A stretch of 64,000 nucleotides of DNA from Chrysomallon squamiferum. Lineage: Eukaryota; Animalia; Mollusca. The stretch spans positions 22,568,001 through 22,632,000 of the forward strand of contig CM022670.1 of NCBI GenBank assembly GCA_012295275.1, read 5' to 3'. Both the position numbers and the translations under genes were made by a program. How positions within the stretch are numbered: position 1 is the stretch's first letter; each line of letters opens with the position of its first letter. Shown piece after piece: positions 49,598 through 61,100 of the stretch. Under the pieces are notes generated by a model, which searched no databases, was not told the origin of the DNA, and saw only the letters and a list, made by a program, of their open reading frames with translations.

Positions 49598-50894
49598 TAC
49601 TGTGACTGTTAAGGATAAATTATTATTTTTAAAAAAACTATCCAGTATTACTGTCTTTTCCTAATGTTTCAACAGGTCTTTTGTAGGTAATAACTGTTAG
49701 TAAGCAAAAAGGGTATTTCATAGCAGCCATTTCATTATACAGTTCATATCATTATTGATGATTCACAGTGTTTGAATTTTTAATTTTTTACCTTAAATGA
49801 ATGGGTTGATGTTTTGTCTGAATAATTAATAAGAGAAAAGAAACACCACTGTACTGATTAGACACAGCTTTTAGTTAGATATGTTATATCTAATACATAC
49901 TTACGTAAGTTTGAAATTAAAATTCAAATTGATACATAATCAATTAATTTCCAAGCAAGGGTACAAAATATTAAACTAGCATTTTTATCTTTACAATATT
50001 GATGCATTAGTCTATCATTGTACCCTTAATGTATTTGGTTGTTTTGGCTGTAATTATAAGTATGTAATAATGATTTTTAATGTAGAATATATTACATATG
50101 TATAGAGCATGTTGAATTATTTAATTCACAAAACTACAACAGTGTTTAAAAATGTGATTCCAAAAAGATGTTGAATTTTGGACAACAATTTACCAAAAAT
50201 AATGCAAGACTGTTTTAAATCTAAAAAAGATCAAAACAAATTTCATCTAATGATGATGTCTTATTTTAAGTAACAATTGTATATCATTATAGTAAGTAGT
50301 ATAGTGCAAGACAGATTTCAGTCATTCAAATGCTGGTACATTTTTTTAATGGAATAAAATACTGCTGTAACATTTTGTATTTGTTTCATATTGTATATTG
50401 AATAAATTATGACATTTTTTAAAGTAGTGTGTTGTTTTTAGATGGATCCATATACATACATATATAGAAGCATACATGAATCTATATATATGCATGCATA
50501 TATTCAAAAAATAGAAAGGGAGAGAACACATAGAGAGATGGACTAATATACCACTGACATAAGTCAGCTGCATGCAATAATATTAGAATCATAGTAAACT
50601 TTATATTAGACTAATATGCAATTCTTTATTCCCTTTAATCTTATAAATTCACTACATTGATAGAAATAAGTAAACACTGAAATAAATACAGTTGAAAAAT
50701 AACCATATGATTTTAGTTTTAGTTCTTATTTATACTTTTATGTTCTGTTTTGAAAACAATTATACATACATTCCTATAGCATTGGAAGCCATCGAATTTT
50801 GCGCCTCCTAACCCGTGGAAATTAGCCCTCCTCAATAAACCTTCCACTAGTGAACCTGAGAATTTTACGCCCGGGGCAACCACCTTATACATTC

Positions 50895-50953
<59 letters not shown>

Positions 50954-52542
50954 TACATACGAGTGTTAGTAATAGATTTGTACGTAATGAACAAAAACAC
51001 TATGTAATGATATAACGGAAGGATAAATAAAGATGTAGGAGATAAGGAAATGATGTATTACACATAGAAACACCCATAAACAGCCCAAAACGTATATGAA
51101 CACACATGCCAGGTCCGTAGGACTGATTTTAAAACTTAATGTTGTATGCGTATTATTGTGAGGAAACACCTTACAATTTCTCCACTGGCAGCATGAAATC
51201 TTGCCTATAGAAGAGACATAATAATATACCACATTCTCTGCGACAGACACGCCCGCTGACCTGTCAGAAAGCGTGCCCGTCGCAGACGTGCTTCACAACA
51301 GCTTGCTCTGATTAGCACGTTAATTTTTTTCCTATCCTATCCTAAACCACATTCTTCGACACATCACTCACTGGACGGGACAGAGAAATACCAGACAAGA
51401 GTATTCAGTTCTACGCGACAATGTGTAACTGCTATAATAATTGTGATTAATGAACAATTTTGTTTTGTTTTTTGTTGTTGTTGTTTTTTTTTTATTAAAG
51501 AATGTATAAATAAGTTAAATCTGCGATAACATAAACATGAAGTGAACAAAAAGGAATTTAAATTTTGTTCAAGATCTTTAAAAAAGACAAAAAAATAATA
51601 AGAAGAAGAAAAGAAAGAAAGAAAAAAGAAGAAGGGGAATGTTTAATAAGGTCTCCTGATACGGGTGACTGATGTTCAGTGACACCGGTATGGTATAAGC
51701 TGAGCGACAAAAGGTTAAAAAGTGACAAATCCTAACCTAACATTCATGGACTTTATTTCTTGTCATTCACTTTTTGGGAAAAATTACACGATAGATATTT
51801 GTTTTGAAGTCATTGATATATCAGCGAATCATTTCGTGATTTTATGTTGTTTTGCGAAAGGGAAGGGGATACTTCTTTACAGACTGATGTAACATTTTTA
51901 TTTATAAAGTTGCTGAAACTCAGGTGGTTGTTGATGGTGAGACGTTTCAAAATGCAACTGCTGTTAGAATGAATGAAAACTTTATTTTGAACTGCATATC
52001 AGTTTTTCCTGAAACGAAGCAAATATGTGCCTCATGATATTGCCATCGATTAAATGTGCGTTTGGCAATGTACAAGTACCAAGACGTATACAACAGTTTG
52101 CTAATATCAACGTATCAATTTAAAAGGATTTTCGACAATGCTGTGTCCAGCTGATTACTTCTAACTTTTTGGAAGATAAATAGTAATAAATTAAAAACAA
52201 AATTAAAAAAATAAAAAAAATAAAATGAATAGTGACTGTAATGACACATAAGAGATTCAAAATAATAAATTAAAAACCAACTATATAACGTTGTTAGTGC
52301 ATTACATAAAATACATATGTCAATGGCCCGTTTAGGTTCATTTTGTCAAAATAATGACATACAGCGGCGACTTGTCTGTCACCCTAAAAGTCATACGAAC
52401 AGATTACACTAAGCGTACTTAAGTTAATATACCCTCCAGGATAACCTGGTGGCAAAATAGTACTAAAACCAAATTTCAAAGAAAATATTTTCTTCCAAGA
52501 ATAGATTTAGGGTGTACCCACTTATAGCTAAGATGAAATATT

Positions 52543-52647: not shown

Positions 52648-53215
52648 TTAACGGATCAGAAAGTTCCTTACAAGAAGAAAACGTAGTTATTTAATTTGTG
52701 TTATGCTTATTGCTTATGAATAATTTTATAACAATAGAGCCCTTCTCACAAATATTTTAGTGGGAATGTACACACCGAGGAAAATAACTGAACCTGCGTC
52801 CCTTTGTTAGAAGAGGAAAATATATCAAATAATTATTAAATCTTTACACATAAACCAAGAAAATGGCTGGAATTTATGACTTAGTTATAAAAAAGATTCT
52901 GCACGTGGCGACTGAAACAAACAAGCGAGTGATTTATCATTTTCCTATGAGTTTTTTGTTATAGGGTGGGTTTTAACTTTGAAACGGTGATTTAATTTGA
53001 CATATGTAATTCCAAATGACATGCTAAATTTTGCTTTGTAATCCATAATTATGTTTCAAAAATAACTCTGTCATCTGTCACTATTTGTTGTTGTTTTTTT
53101 GACGTGTGCAACAGTTCATAATTATAATGACAGTTAATTCATTATCATTGTTTCTTCATGTCCCTAAGCTAGATCGAAATAAAATGACAGCGATGAGATT
53201 TATTAGAAATTAAAA

Positions 53216-53281
53216 TATAAATAGCGTTAGATAACCGTTTAACAACGCTCTACCTGTTGTCACTTTCGAAAAAATATACAG
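53216..53281 (+). promoter_or_regulatory. TATA box and short non-coding first exon of the small peptide gene
   Basis: TATAAATA at 53216-53223, followed about 60 nt later by a perfect donor CAG|GTAAGT (exon end 53281). A matching polypyrimidine acceptor ends at 53924. Confidence 0.65.
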
Positions 53282-53751
53282 GTAAGTAATTTAGATATAT
53301 TTCTTTTGTTTTTCGATTATTATTATTATTATTTTTATTTTTTTTTTTTTTTTTTTTTTTTTTTGTGTCTTTCTTTCTCTATTTATTTATTTATTTATAT
53401 AGATTTTTTTTTTTATTAATATCATATATTCACAAACATCAATTATCTGACAAAAAAATATCCTGCCAAATCTCATGTTTTTTAAAAGTAAATTTGTTCG
53501 TTAATATAATAGTCTCAGATAATATCAAAAATGTTTGTAAACGCTTACGATATGGAATACGTATCATTTTGTTTTTTAAAGAAATACACTGATACCTTAA
53601 GAAAACGCGCAGAGGGTCGTAACTTTCCCACAATTCATTAAATAATGACTAGTGTTTTATTCTGTTATTATCATTATTATTATTTTAACATACAAAATAT
53701 ATTATCATTATTTTATTATCAATAAAATGATTATTACTGTTGTTGTTGTTG

Positions 53752-53788
<37 letters not shown>

Positions 53789-53937
53789 TAAGAATGAAAC
53801 TCTAACCAAGCTGAATATTTTGTCTGGTGGAGCAGTTTCGCCTTTTTCAAAAGCCTTTTCCTACACAGACAGTTAATATCATAAACTGCTGCAGGTTAAT
53901 CTTTTTCTTTCTCTATTTCTTTAGTTTGGGAACCACC

Positions 53938-54084
53938 ATGTTGAAACTGCTGCTGGCAGTGCTGCTTCTTCTGGCATTAATTGAAGTCTGTGTGTCACAC
54001 TGGCCATTTTTTCCAATTGTACCTTCTCCTTTCGTGTTTCCATTTAACCCATGGGTCTATGAAGAACTTTACGATTATGGTGGG

Positions 54085-54138
<54 letters not shown>

Positions 54139-54469
54139 CATCAGTGTTGTTGTTGTTGTGGTTTTTGATAATGATATTATTGTTGTTAAACACTTGTGCA
54201 AATGTTTTGGTTATTTATTACATTTAATATGTTTTCAGTGGTATTGGTTTATATTGACAAACTTAAAAGTGTACCATCTGTTTTATCATTTGTTGTTTGC
54301 TACTACAATTATTTTACTGCTTTTAAATTTTTTTTATCACTTTACGATTTTATTGTTGTTGTTATATTCGTGTGTGTTTATTTATTTATTTATTTATTGT
54401 TGTTGCTTAATATATTTATTGTAATAAAACTATTTCTATTAAAAAAATAATTTGTTATAAAATTTTATT

Positions 54470-54544
<75 letters not shown>

Positions 54545-54604
54545 ACGTTTAATATTTATCTATTATTTTATTTATTTTATTTCACAGGAAGGCGCGGGGT
54601 ATAA
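53938..54604 (+). CDS. Orphan 52-aa secreted peptide precursor (signal peptide + 27-aa peptide + GRR); coding exons 53938-54079 and 54588-54604
   Basis: ACCACC-ATG Kozak context. MLKLLLAVLLLLALIEVCVS-HWPFFPIVPSPFVFPFNPWVYEELYDY-GRR-GV*. Donor G|GTGGGT at 54079/54080, acceptor TTTCACAG| at 54587, AATAAA at 54695-54700 with a downstream T/GT-rich tract. Confidence 0.75.
54471..54543. repeat. (AAT)n(ATT)n inverted microsatellite
   Basis: Spacerless palindrome centred at 54502/54503. Confidence 0.9.
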
Positions 54605-54846
54605 AGACAATGGTCGGCAGACTGATACAGTGAGCGTACTAATACTATATAGCTGATAATTATCCTATGTCATGGCTAACGGTGTTGATGGTGCAATAAA
54701 GAAGTTGTAACTATTTTTTTGTGTTATATTTATTAATTAAATACTACAAATTTAATAAGAAGGCCTTTACAGAATTTCAGAAATTGTGGTACCGACTTCA
54801 CTGTATGTGTGTAATAGTCTAACTTATTTTTGATCAAAATATGTGC

Positions 54847-57877: not shown

Positions 57878-58143
57878 ATGGAAGAAATAGAAGCTGGTCA
57901 GTTTGACGATGTTGAAGAGTAAGATATCTAAATAGTGTAGTATTTTTTTTTTAGGTTTTTTAGGTTTTTAAATATGTTTACCAAGATCAAACTTGTTTGG
58001 TTTAATCGACAAAATTTCTGAATTGGAATTATTCAATTAGAATCGTAACTTTCAATTAAAATTTATTATCAAATAAATGAAGAAATATGATATTAATTTT
58101 ATTATGAGTCTAAAACTACAACAAGAGCAGTAATTTATTAACA

Positions 58144-58181
<38 letters not shown>

Positions 58182-61100
58182 TTTTAAAAAATGTTTTAAA
58201 AATGATATAAATTATAATCATAATGCATTAATGGACACGACATAAAGTTTATGGAATTCCATCTTGATAGATCGGAACTTCAAAATGAAGGGGAAAAAAA
58301 AATTCATTCAAAGAGAATAATAATAAATATTTGTAGACAAATAAATTAATTTTAGTAGATCACATGGATTGGAGAAAAATGTGACACGTCACATCAAATG
58401 TTTGCCAAATTCAAAAATTGTGCAATGAAGTTTTAATTATTGAACTTATTCCTTAATGTGAAATCATCTTACTATATTTCAGTTTTTCAAAATAGGACAG
58501 TATTTATTTATAACTGCTTTGCAAATATCACTTGTGCCAATAATCTAAAATCAGTTCTATATTATTATTACTATTAGCCATTAGGGGAAGAGTGAAGTTG
58601 ATAATGTAATAACAAATACAAAAAGAAAAATTACACATTTTTTCAAACCAAATTAAAATATTCTTAAAGGTTACAGAATTACATAAAATTTTCATTACAA
58701 AATTATTGGCTCCCATTGTTATACTTACACCATAATAATTATTGACAACAATTTGAACAAATATCATTTTTTTATATGTTTAATTTTGTTTTTCTTGCAG
58801 AGCACATCTGTCTGATAAAACATCATCACTGTTCATCAGTGAAAGCTCAGAAAGAAGTGAGTAGCTAGCTCATAGTCATAGAAGTATTTCTCATTTATAA
58901 CAAATAAGTATGGTTGTTGTGAAACAGCATTTACATTAAAAAGACAGTTAACAAAGTGACATGGAATTAATCTGCCCATTTAATTTGTTTAATATTAAAT
59001 GCTGTAACAACATTTTTTGGTAAATGCATATTTTCTCCATCTCTGATATAATATAAATATATATGTTGCTTTTTTTTCAGTATGAAATTCCTTTTTAAGA
59101 AAAATGTAATATAATAAAATATAAAAACAAATTACAGAATATATGTTTTATAATAATGTTTATATTTAGACTGCAACTCATATGAAGAGGACAGTGATTA
59201 TGATGATGACTATGATGATGCTGATTATGACTGGGAAGATGGAATTGGTGATTTAACAAAGAAATACCAAGCTTCTGTTGCAAATAATAAACAGGTGCAA
59301 TAAAAAGTAATCTGATAAACTTTTTTTTAATGTATTTTTTGTACAAATAATAAAAAAAAAATATTCACTTCATTGAAAATATATTACCTTAGAGTTGGAG
59401 CATTTTCTATTGTTTTTTATTTGTTTATCACAATATTTAGAAGTAATTCTGAGGTTCCTTGAAAATAGATCCAATAGCAGTAATAGAAAAATGAGACAAA
59501 AGTTCAGGTCAGGTTAGTTAAAATTTTCACTTATGACAAAACAAGTTGAATTAAATTTTAAATGTACCTTTGTAAATTTGTAAGAATTCTTAGTACTGTA
59601 TTTATTTTCTATTTTTCAAAAGATGTAAATATGATATTTTTTATTATTCAGCCCAATTCAAGACAGCCTAATCAGCAGGAAAAGAAAAATATTTCCAAGT
59701 TTCAGCCTCCAGAGAAATCTTTAAATAAATATGTTCAGAAAATTAATGTTGGTAAGTACAATTTTTATTTTAAAAAAAGTGAGAAAATATTCACTTAATC
59801 ATTTTTGTTGATATATTAGTTTTCTTTAGTACATTTTTCTCTTTGCTATACAGAAGAATTTAAAACACACATGTTGTTTGTATAATTCACTCTTTGATTT
59901 AAGTTGATGGCATAACTATTTAGTTTCCACATTATTTTAATTATTTTGATAGTTATATTTAAACTATTTTTCAGAAAAGTATAATGGCCCAGACTTTTCC
60001 AGCTTTGCCTTATCGTCTCTTTCTCAGACTGGGAGAAAAATGCATGCAGACAGGTTTGATTTTTATATCTGGAATGAAAGTTAGTCACCTGTATGCTGAA
60101 CTGCAGTTTTTTGGCATTCACCAAAAAAAAACCCAATAATAATAATAAAAAAAAATTAAATTAATAAATTCACTATTTTTATAACAAAATACATATTTGA
60201 TTTTACTCAGTTTATAATAAGATGAGTGCAGAATGACTTGTGATCTTCCTTATAAAAAGTGAGTGATGTTTTTTGATTAGTTACCGAGGCAAGGATAAAG
60301 CAGACAGAGCTACAGCAGAACAGGTGATGGATCCTCGCACACGGATGATTGTCTTCAAGATGCTGAGTCATGGCATCATCACAGAGATTAACGGCTGCAT
60401 CAGCACGGGAAAGGAAGCCAATGTCTACCATGCCACCGTCAAAGACAATTCTGACAGAGCTGTCAAGGTAAACATTCCATTAGTTGCTGTTTTACACAAT
60501 ATAGATAATATTCCAATGTTTTGGGGTTTGAATGGTTTTTTAAATGTTGCTAGTGCCAGTAATAATAAAATACCAAAAACAAACAATATTTGAAATGATT
60601 CAGTCATTGTTTATATATGTATCTACATAATAGTTGTTTTTTGTGATCTAAAATAAAAACTTTGTTTTTTTAACAGATCTATAAAACATCCATACTGGTC
60701 TTCAAGGATAGGGACAAGTATGTGACAGGAGAATTCAGGTATACATGATTCTTTCATCACTGTTTTAAAAATTAAAATGACCAGATCCAGCACAGTTTCT
60801 ATGAATAATACTAGTTTATTTATTTATTTATTTTTTTAATTTTGAAAATTTGTGACTATACATATATATAAAATGGATATTCTGATATATAGTTGAAATG
60901 ACATTTTAACATCAACAACAGTATTTCGATTTTACTTTCTTTTTAAATTATAAATCATAATAATATGCACACTGGTATGTCAGAAATCTGACATTCACTT
61001 CTTCTGACATATATAGATGTTTGTAGGAAGTACAGAGTGCTAGAGAAAACACAACTGGTGTCTCAGGGCCAACTTTCTTGAGAAAGAATTTCTGGCAGTA

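What the first reader, a model, noticed from the sequence alone, without database searches (positions are those of the whole stretch)
53216..54720. Hidden orphan gene for a secreted, probably C-amidated 27-aa Pro/aromatic peptide
Seen: a complete, coherent gene in an otherwise repeat-filled gap between CCDC138 and RIOK1. It has a TATA box, a non-coding exon with CAG|GTAAGT, ACCACC-ATG, a second intron, a stop and AATAAA. Splicing gives MLKLLLAVLLLLALIEVCVS|HWPFFPIVPSPFVFPFNPWVYEELYDY|GRR|GV. The GRR appears only after splicing; the ORF track reads into a microsatellite instead. Established: Gly followed by a dibasic pair is the prohormone convertase / carboxypeptidase E / PAM amidation signal, and Tyr next to acidic residues (EELYDY) is a tyrosylprotein sulfotransferase context. 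Inference: the mature product is HWPFFPIVPSPFVFPFNPWVYEELYDY-NH2, bipartite (hydrophobic Pro/Phe/Trp half, acidic Tyr half) and Cys-free. It matches no neuropeptide or antimicrobial family I recognise. It could be a new hormone or pheromone, a defence peptide, or a shell/mucus matrix peptide.
Basis: partly seen in the sequence, partly recalled or inferred. Interest (0 to 1): 0.85.

Follow-up and report, generated by a model that had tools for sequence, protein, structure and literature searches.

The report
Vent-snail orphan amidated acidic peptide gene
A small spliced gene with no detected relatives, in what is likely a deep-sea vent snail, is predicted to make a secreted, amidated, acidic 27-residue peptide that likely binds targets where the animal meets microbes.

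Summary
The gene is real. All named signals sit at the stated coordinates. One RNA contig joins 54079 to 54588, which gives the Gly-Arg-Arg-Gly-Val-stop frame. Exon 1 and intron 1 were not covered by RNA. The neighbouring RIOK1 is closest to that of Gigantopelta aegis, so the host is likely a peltospirid vent snail. No homologue was found in 1.84 billion cluster representatives, Pfam, PDB or the papers searched. The predicted mature 27-mer has pI about 4.1, no Lys, Arg or Cys, 22% Pro and 37% aromatics. Variants from two other runs change only its Pro/Phe half; that rests mostly on one low-depth contig. The exon layout and amidation signal match mussel myticalins, but charge, propeptide and taxon fail that family. 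CCK, NPF, proline-rich AMP and FITZAP membership also fail. Best reading (0.35): a lineage-restricted host-defence or microbe-control peptide that binds a cationic target through an acidic, possibly sulfated tail. Rivals: hormone (0.25), anionic granule partner (0.15), hard-part matrix peptide (0.15). Amidation, sulfation, tissue and function are untested.

The parts
53216..53221 (+). TATA box (predicted)
   Evidence: the only TATAAA in the window followed by a consensus donor 45-110 nt downstream; no RNA cover
53246..53281 (+). Exon 1, non-coding (start approximate, predicted)
   Evidence: CAG|GTAAGT donor, no ATG inside; not covered by RNA
53282..53924 (+). Intron 1, 643 nt (predicted), with poly-T and TTA microsatellites
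   Evidence: junction untested
53925..54079 (+). Exon 2: 13 nt 5'UTR, ATG, signal peptide, mature peptide, first base of the Gly48 codon
   Evidence: RNA contig of X1 covers 53940-54080; translation P0001
53938..53997 (+). Signal peptide, residues 1-20 (predicted cleavage after Cys-Val-Ser)
   Evidence: hydropathy up to 3.6 over residues 4-12; no variant in X1 or X9
53998..54051 (+). Pro/Phe-rich hydrophobic half of the predicted mature peptide (residues 21-38); holds all coding variants seen
   Evidence: F25I, V28M, S30A and one silent change in X1; V28M in X9; extended in the AlphaFold model, low confidence
54052..54078 (+). Acidic Tyr tail (residues 39-47), candidate sulfation cluster Y41/Y45/Y47
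   Evidence: no variant in X1 or X9; helix at residues 38-46 in the AlphaFold model, mean pLDDT 61
54080..54587 (+). Intron 2, 508 nt, phase 1 (inside the Gly48 codon)
   Evidence: spliced out in the X1 RNA contig; GT..AG
54588..54720 (+). Exon 3: rest of Gly48, Arg-Arg-Gly-Val, stop at 54602-54604, 3'UTR, AATAAA at 54695 (3' end approximate)
   Evidence: RNA loose end matches 54589-54618 and reaches about 54655; stop

Best explanation
This is a transcribed, spliced orphan gene, likely of a peltospirid vent snail, whose 52-aa product is predicted to be secreted and cut at Gly-Arg-Arg into an amidated, acidic 27-mer that likely acts as a host-defence or microbe-control peptide by binding a cationic target. 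Shown: the gene, the intron-2 junction and the reading frame. Inferred from established processing chemistry: signal cleavage after Ser20, convertase and carboxypeptidase trimming, PAM amidation of Tyr47 (about 0.75) and sulfation of one or more tail tyrosines (about 0.45). Proposed mechanism, untested: the invariant acidic Tyr tail docks on a basic surface patch, as sulfotyrosine clusters do. The extended Pro/Phe arm, which varies between haplotypes, fits a hydrophobic cleft and sets specificity; a microbial serine protease or surface protein is one candidate target. It would not kill by cationic membrane attack.
For: The exon layout equals that of myticalin defence-peptide genes: three exons, a 5'UTR-only first exon, ATG at the start of exon 2, phase-1 intron 2 and a Gly-dibasic amidation signal (PMC5577615; PMC12294457). 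All 5 coding differences in X1 and both in X9 fall in the mature N-half and none in the signal or tail. Against the RIOK1 control: 5 of 141 vs 6 of 999 nt (p=0.007), 3 of 47 vs 3 of 333 residues (p=0.027), and X1 vs X9 directly 3 of 141 vs 1 of 811 nt (p=0.011). No homologue was found, which suits a fast-evolving effector. 6 of the 8 residues V40-Y47 are acidic or aromatic, the composition given for hirudin-like sulfotyrosine motifs (PMC9372746). Aplysia CCK1 is sulfated on a Y-D-Y context (PMC13485628).
Against: The peptide is anionic (pI 4.1, charge about -3, no Lys or Arg), unlike myticalins and proline-rich AMPs. No paralogue lies in the 64 kb window, whereas myticalins are a multigene family. 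The variation signal is weak: counted as events it gives p=0.06-0.09, and three of the five X1 letters rest on one contig of depth 2.7. The V28M change shared by X1 and X9 may be a window-private letter, as seen at three RIOK1 sites. No NF-kB-, AP-1- or C/EBP-like consensus site lies in 586 bp upstream, though fewer than one of each was expected. The same exon layout could occur in other secreted-peptide genes. There are no data on tissue, induction or activity.
Confidence: 0.35

Rival explanations
1. A lineage-specific neuropeptide, hormone or pheromone: the amidated, sulfated C-terminal tail is the receptor-binding end and the N-half is a tolerant extension.
For: One peptide per precursor with GRR. 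The C-terminal nine residues are invariant in X1 and X9. The amidated aromatic end and Y-D-Y context recall the Aplysia CCK1 chemistry. Profile searches cannot detect families that share only a short C-terminal motif.
Against: No RFamide or DFamide, and no RF/RY end or phase-2 Arg intron of NPY/NPF. No homologue in other molluscs, whereas neuropeptides are usually conserved across the phylum (recalled). The N-half is very hydrophobic and variable.
Confidence: 0.25
2. An anionic partner peptide like abalone FITZAP/sp6, which packs against a cationic, hydrophobic protein in secretory granules (sperm or defence) and releases it in seawater.
For: FITZAP is a gastropod secreted, disordered, 3-4 kDa anionic peptide cut by furin and carboxypeptidase B. 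It binds through hydrophobic plus acidic segments and evolves fast (PMC6952181). This peptide is 3.4 kDa, anionic and bipartite. By eye, 2 of the 4 FITZAP constructs whose ends were shown end in an acidic stretch plus Gly.
Against: No N-terminal poly-Asp, the order of the halves is reversed, and the basic site lies in the last exon rather than the first coding exon. Net charge is about -3 against -8 to -10. One peltospirid is reported as probably fertilising internally (PMC13768707). No alignment to FITZAP was computed.
Confidence: 0.15
3. A shell, periostracum, sclerite or mucus matrix peptide that self-assembles through the Pro/Phe half and binds mineral, metal or chitin-associated protein through the acidic Tyr tail.
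For: Bipartite hydrophobic/acidic composition. Many peltospirid shell proteins are uncharacterised and carry signal peptides (PMC11871041). An MRE-like core lies about 110 bp upstream of the TATA box (0.19 expected, 12 motifs tested).
Against: A search for papers holding all six terms on amidated low-molecular-weight mollusc shell-matrix peptides returned 0. The peptide is very short and single-copy in the window. No RNA run holding most of the mRNA was returned, but that search is weak.
Confidence: 0.15
4. A young or non-functional spliced ORF whose signal and GRR motifs are incidental.
For: No homologue, one low-depth RNA contig, and a non-consensus donor (GTGGGT).
Against: Signal peptide, start context, phase-matched GRR and stop coincide. 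It is the only such ORF in the window. Exon GC equals that of RIOK1 exons. The frame is intact in three haplotypes.
Confidence: 0.06

Closest known systems
Myticalins and modiocalins (mussel linear AMPs; PMC5577615, PMC12294457)
   Same: Three exons, 5'UTR-only exon 1, ATG at the start of exon 2, phase-1 intron 2; Cys-free, Pro-rich mature peptide of similar length (23-42 aa); Gly-dibasic amidation signal; variation in the mature region.
   Different: Anionic (pI 4.1, no Arg) against pI above 11 and over 10% Arg; 2-residue tail against a 35-75 aa anionic propeptide; dibasic site in exon 3; gastropod; no sequence similarity found.
Abalone FITZAP/sp6 (PMC6952181)
   Same: Gastropod, secreted, 3-4 kDa, anionic, hydrophobic plus acidic segments, cut at a basic site and trimmed by a carboxypeptidase, fast-evolving.
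   Different: No N-terminal poly-Asp, reversed order of halves, Pro/aromatic-rich, basic site in the last exon; tissue unknown.
Molluscan CCK/sulfakinin (PMC13485628)
   Same: Tyr-Asp-Tyr context near an amidated aromatic C-terminus.
   Different: Lacks the defining RFamide/DFamide; amidation would fall on the second Tyr itself.
Hirudin-like sulfotyrosine motifs (hirudin, madanin, tsetse thrombin inhibitor; PMC9372746)
   Same: Eight-residue acidic/aromatic stretch with clustered Tyr in a small secreted invertebrate peptide.
   Different: No known target and no homology; sulfation untested; the host is not known as a blood feeder (recalled).
NPY/NPF (PMC7314547)
   Same: Predicted extended Pro-rich N-half followed by a short helix and a Tyr-amide, with an intron close to the amidation site.
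   Different: No Arg before the terminal residue; the intron is phase 1 in the Gly codon, not phase 2 in the Arg codon; only 27 aa.

Membership tests
Myticalin | Second intron in phase 1 after the signal- and mature-coding exon | tested here: met
   junction inside the Gly48 codon seen in RNA; definition
Myticalin | Exon 1 is 5'UTR only | tested here: inconclusive
   signals present, no RNA cover
Myticalin | Mature peptide pI above 11 and over 10% Arg | tested here: not met
   pI 4.13, 0 Lys/Arg
Myticalin | Anionic C-terminal extension of 35-75 aa, dibasic site in exon 2 | tested here: not met
   two residues follow Arg-Arg, which lies in exon 3
Myticalin | Restricted to Mytiloida | tested here: not met
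   the neighbouring RIOK1 is closest to the gastropod Gigantopelta aegis
Myticalin | Hypervariable mature region with conserved signal peptide | tested here: inconclusive
   three haplotypes only; p from 0.007 to 0.09 by way of counting
Myticalin | Multigene family | not testable with these tools
   no genome held; no paralogue in the window
Proline-rich AMP (criteria quoted in PMC11678341) | Pro at least 25% and net charge at least +1 | tested here: not met
   Pro 22%, charge about -3
Proline-rich AMP (criteria quoted in PMC11678341) | Antimicrobial activity; DnaK or ribosome target | not testable with these tools
   needs bench assay
CCK/sulfakinin | C-terminal RFamide or DFamide | tested here: not met
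   predicted end is Asp-Tyr-amide
CCK/sulfakinin | Sulfated Tyr | not testable with these tools
   Y-D-Y context present; the modification needs mass spectrometry
NPY/NPF | C-terminal RF or RY dipeptide, with a phase-2 intron in the Arg codon | tested here: not met
   no Arg in the mature peptide; phase-1 intron in the Gly codon
FITZAP/sp6 | N-terminal poly-Asp region and furin site in the first coding exon | tested here: not met
FITZAP/sp6 | Sperm acrosome localisation and lysin/sp18 binding | not testable with these tools
   tissue of the runs unknown
Hirudin-like sulfotyrosine motif | Eight contiguous residues, mostly acidic or aromatic, with clustered Tyr | tested here: met
   6 of 8 residues in V40-Y47; composition only
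Hirudin-like sulfotyrosine motif | Binds a serine-protease exosite | not testable with these tools
   no target known

The most novel reading that the evidence does not exclude
Founding member of a family of anionic, sulfated and amidated two-part effector peptides in vent snails: a fixed sulfotyrosine tail grips a basic exosite while a fast-evolving Pro-Phe arm blocks a microbial protease or surface protein, giving the host a non-lytic way to police symbionts and epibionts.
Probability: 0.15. Interest if true: 0.75.

Novelty: new variant of a known kind. Interest (0 to 1): 0.45.

Why it matters
The precursor grammar is ordinary, but the mature peptide fits no family tested, and the 52-aa ORF exists only after splicing, so ORF-based gene callers would miss it. 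None of the 11 symbiosis or snail papers listed with Gigantopelta mentions antimicrobial peptides except one general snail review, so host peptides that manage microbes in these vent snails look undescribed in the library searched. A 27-mer can be synthesised, so its role can be tested directly. If it proves to be a hormone, it would be a new molluscan peptide family.

Tried and rejected
Homologue searches that found nothing: word-seeded search at 25-83 aa, 1 candidate, none at E<=1; at 84-2000 aa, 68 candidates, none at E<=10; phmmer over 1.84 billion representatives, 0 at E<=0.001; Pfam 0; PDB 0; ESM Atlas best score 0.77, a lead only and not used; a second Atlas search on the mature part did not complete; JGI metagenomes, 595 pattern matches, 0 confirmed, and 0 exact matches to a 28-nt pattern; Rfam 0 in the window; earlier scan findings 0. 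Short peptides are hard to find by such searches, so remote relatives are not excluded. Text searches for peptide motifs: 0 papers, 0 in supplements of PMC11871041 and PMC7142155 (file 13 not searched). The sheet headings listed for PMC11871041 show no sequence columns (7 sheets not listed, two PDFs unreadable), so those blanks carry little weight. RNA runs X10 and X11 hold spliced host RIOK1 but no contig on exon 2; contigs cannot show absence or level, so this is not used. X9 depth on exon 2 (33.6) is about half that on RIOK1 (60-64); the tool warns that depth is no copy number, so this is not used. Amphipathic helix or PPII periodicity was not above shuffles (p=0.17-0.64). The AlphaFold model was too weak (pLDDT 61, pTM 0.19) for a fold search. 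The bacterial promoter scan is irrelevant to an animal gene. The residue test assumed no RIOK1 amino-acid changes; the same call showed three, and the test was redone. The unspliced Tyr-Gly-Gly-Phe reading was rejected because RNA shows the spliced form. A cyclic-peptide precursor reading (recalled from fungal and plant examples) was dropped because the signal peptide and GRR point to ordinary secretory processing. The species was not pinned down: window GC is 27% against 34.5% and 37.5% reported for Chrysomallon squamiferum and G. aegis.

Full report
Observation. Exon 2 translates as MLKLLLAVLLLLALIEVCVSHWPFFPIVPSPFVFPFNPWVYEELYDY (P0001). Intron 2 splits the next codon after its first base; exon 3 completes Gly and adds Arg-Arg-Gly-Val-stop. 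TATAAA and AATAAA alone mean little at 27% GC (242 and 429 copies), but TATAAA followed by a consensus donor occurs once in the window. A crude scan for signal-peptide ORFs on both strands returns this ORF alone. Exon-2 CDS GC (0.415) matches RIOK1 exons (0.40) and stands above its introns (0.22, 0.16).

RNA evidence. The run search listed 11 runs, and I laid the four labelled organism A. On exon 2, 1 of 3 RNA runs gave a contig: X1, 208 nt, depth 2.7, aligned 53940-54080 with a 67-nt loose end whose 30 shown letters equal window 54589-54618. This is the predicted intron-2 junction, so the GRR frame is the one transcribed. It is one contig from one run, and a retrocopy was not excluded. X9 runs through both exon borders unspliced. 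Exon 1, intron 1 and the poly(A) site were not covered. As a control, all three RNA runs hold spliced RIOK1 with few differences from the window (about 6 of 999 coding nt in X1; 22 of 3359 genomic nt in X9), so organism A is likely the window's species.

Host. Pfam confirms CCDC138 upstream and RIO1 downstream. Among 58 of the 120 listed RIOK1 relatives, Gigantopelta aegis scores best by a clear margin (687 bits against 596 for Haliotis rubra) but is not identical. The host is therefore likely a neomphaline, peltospirid vent snail. Window GC (27%) is below the genome values reported for Chrysomallon squamiferum (34.5%) and G. aegis (37.5%) (PMC7736800), so the species is left open.

Anatomy. 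Residues 1-20 look like a signal peptide, with Lys3, a Leu-rich core (hydropathy up to 3.6) and Cys/Ser at -3/-1 (rule recalled, SignalP not available). The predicted mature peptide, residues 21-47, has 27 aa, 3.43 kDa, pI 4.1, charge about -3, 22% Pro, 37% aromatics and no Cys, Lys or Arg. Pro-Phe occurs three times in the N-half. A single-sequence AlphaFold model shows an extended N-half and a helix over residues 38-46, at low confidence (pLDDT 61). No amphipathic periodicity beats shuffles. Gly followed by a dibasic pair is the convertase, carboxypeptidase and PAM signal, described for myticalins in PMC5577615. The tail fits a sulfotyrosine-cluster composition, with 6 of 8 residues acidic or aromatic (PMC9372746), and Aplysia CCK1 is sulfated in a Y-D-Y context (PMC13485628). 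Neither modification was tested.

Variation. X1 differs from the window at 5 of 141 coding nt, all within 54010-54025 (F25I, V28M, S30A, one silent). X9 shares V28M only. The signal peptide, acidic tail and the 30 exon-3 letters shown are invariant. Against RIOK1 the excess is p=0.007 by nucleotide, p=0.027 by residue (3 of 47 vs 3 of 333) and p=0.011 for X1 vs X9 directly, but only p=0.06-0.09 when adjacent changes count as one event. Three X1 letters rest on one contig under depth 5. V28M may be a window-private letter, since the window also differs from the covering runs at three RIOK1 codons. For the baseline I left out 12 nt past a RIOK1 exon end in X1, where the piece showed four differences, and one further RIOK1 difference has no listed position. 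This is a hint, not proof, of a variable arm on a fixed tail.

Homologues. None was found in word-seeded searches at two length ranges, phmmer over 1.84 billion representatives, Pfam, PDB, JGI metagenomes, the window itself, paper full text or earlier scan notes. The ESM Atlas gave only scores of 0.77 and below. No whole genome was held, so paralogues and orthologues in related snails remain untested. Searches with 47 residues would miss families that share only a short motif.

How it most likely works. Shown: transcription, intron-2 splicing and the frame. Inferred: secretion (about 0.9), amidation (about 0.75) and sulfation (about 0.45). The charge excludes a cationic, membrane-attacking antimicrobial. 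The two-part design suggests a binder: the acidic Tyr tail docks on a basic patch and the Pro/Phe arm fills a hydrophobic cleft. Pro-Phe is a preferred site of chymotrypsin- and subtilisin-type proteases (recalled), which makes a microbial protease one testable target. The myticalin-like layout, the lack of relatives and the placement of variants tip the balance to defence or microbe control (0.35). A hormone or pheromone (0.25), a FITZAP-like anionic granule partner (0.15), a hard-part or mucus matrix peptide (0.15) and a non-functional ORF (0.06) remain open. Tissue expression would separate most of these.

Comparison with known families. It is built like a myticalin but fails membership on charge, Arg content, propeptide, exon position of the dibasic site and taxon. 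It fails the proline-rich AMP criteria, CCK/sulfakinin (no RF/DFamide), NPY/NPF (no Arg, wrong intron phase) and FITZAP (no N-terminal poly-Asp). FITZAP remains the closest gastropod example of a small anionic bipartite peptide cut at a basic site; its sequences were compared by eye only.

Papers and what I saw. PMC5577615: parts 1-2 of 9 and passages. PMC11871041: outline, part 1 of 3 of Results, supplement list and supplement search. PMC6952181: passages and passages of supplement 8. PMC7142155: passages and supplement search (12 of 13 files). PMC12294457, PMC13485628, PMC7314547, PMC11678341, PMC9372746, PMC7736800 and PMC13768707: passages only. All others: search listings and abstract starts. 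Published gene models and proteomes of peltospirids that I could not see may already hold this ORF as an unnamed novel gene.

Verdict. A real, spliced orphan prepropeptide gene with ordinary processing signals and a mature peptide that fits no family tested: a new variant of a known kind. Orphan secreted peptides are common in molluscs (recalled) and the function is untested, so interest is moderate (0.45). It would reach about 0.75 if it proves to be a sulfated, non-lytic microbe-control peptide of vent snails.

Noticed in passing
window 60370, 60439, 60448 (RIOK1): The window differs from the covering runs at three non-synonymous sites (all four runs at 60370, three of four at the others). 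At 60370 the runs carry Arg, as Gigantopelta does, while the window has His. These may be window-private alleles or assembly errors.
   Followed up: partly
window 53100-53110: A CRE half-site (TGACGT) overlaps a metal-response-element core on the minus strand about 110 bp upstream of the TATA box; 0.1 and 0.19 expected, 12 motifs tested, so weak.
   Followed up: partly
window 50800-52200: A GC- and CpG-richer stretch in the gap. A broken reading frame at 51888-52190 has no Pfam hit; it may be a decayed mobile element or a regulatory region.
   Followed up: partly
window 54605-54700: The peptide gene's 3'UTR is GC-rich (0.40) against 0.27 for the CCDC138 3' region; it could be a remnant of a longer coding propeptide.
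   Followed up: no
window 53795-54086: X9 differs from the window at 9 of 292 nt plus one insertion, against 22 of 3359 in RIOK1, so the locus may be unusually divergent between haplotypes. The changes keep the ATG, the -3 A and the acceptor AG.
   Followed up: partly
window 57878-59170: RIOK1 appears to start at 57878 with a short first coding exon; RNA loose ends show another exon near 58830-58870.
   Followed up: no
P0004: The Gigantopelta aegis RIOK1 record is 962 aa and carries PF04882 as well as RIO1, probably a fused gene model.
   Followed up: no
window 1-41000: Pfam hits show a kinesin motor gene (weak hit, minus strand), a glycosyltransferase family 21 gene and an LRR_9 gene. By recall these are KIF2-like, UGCG and SNRPA1.
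   Followed up: no
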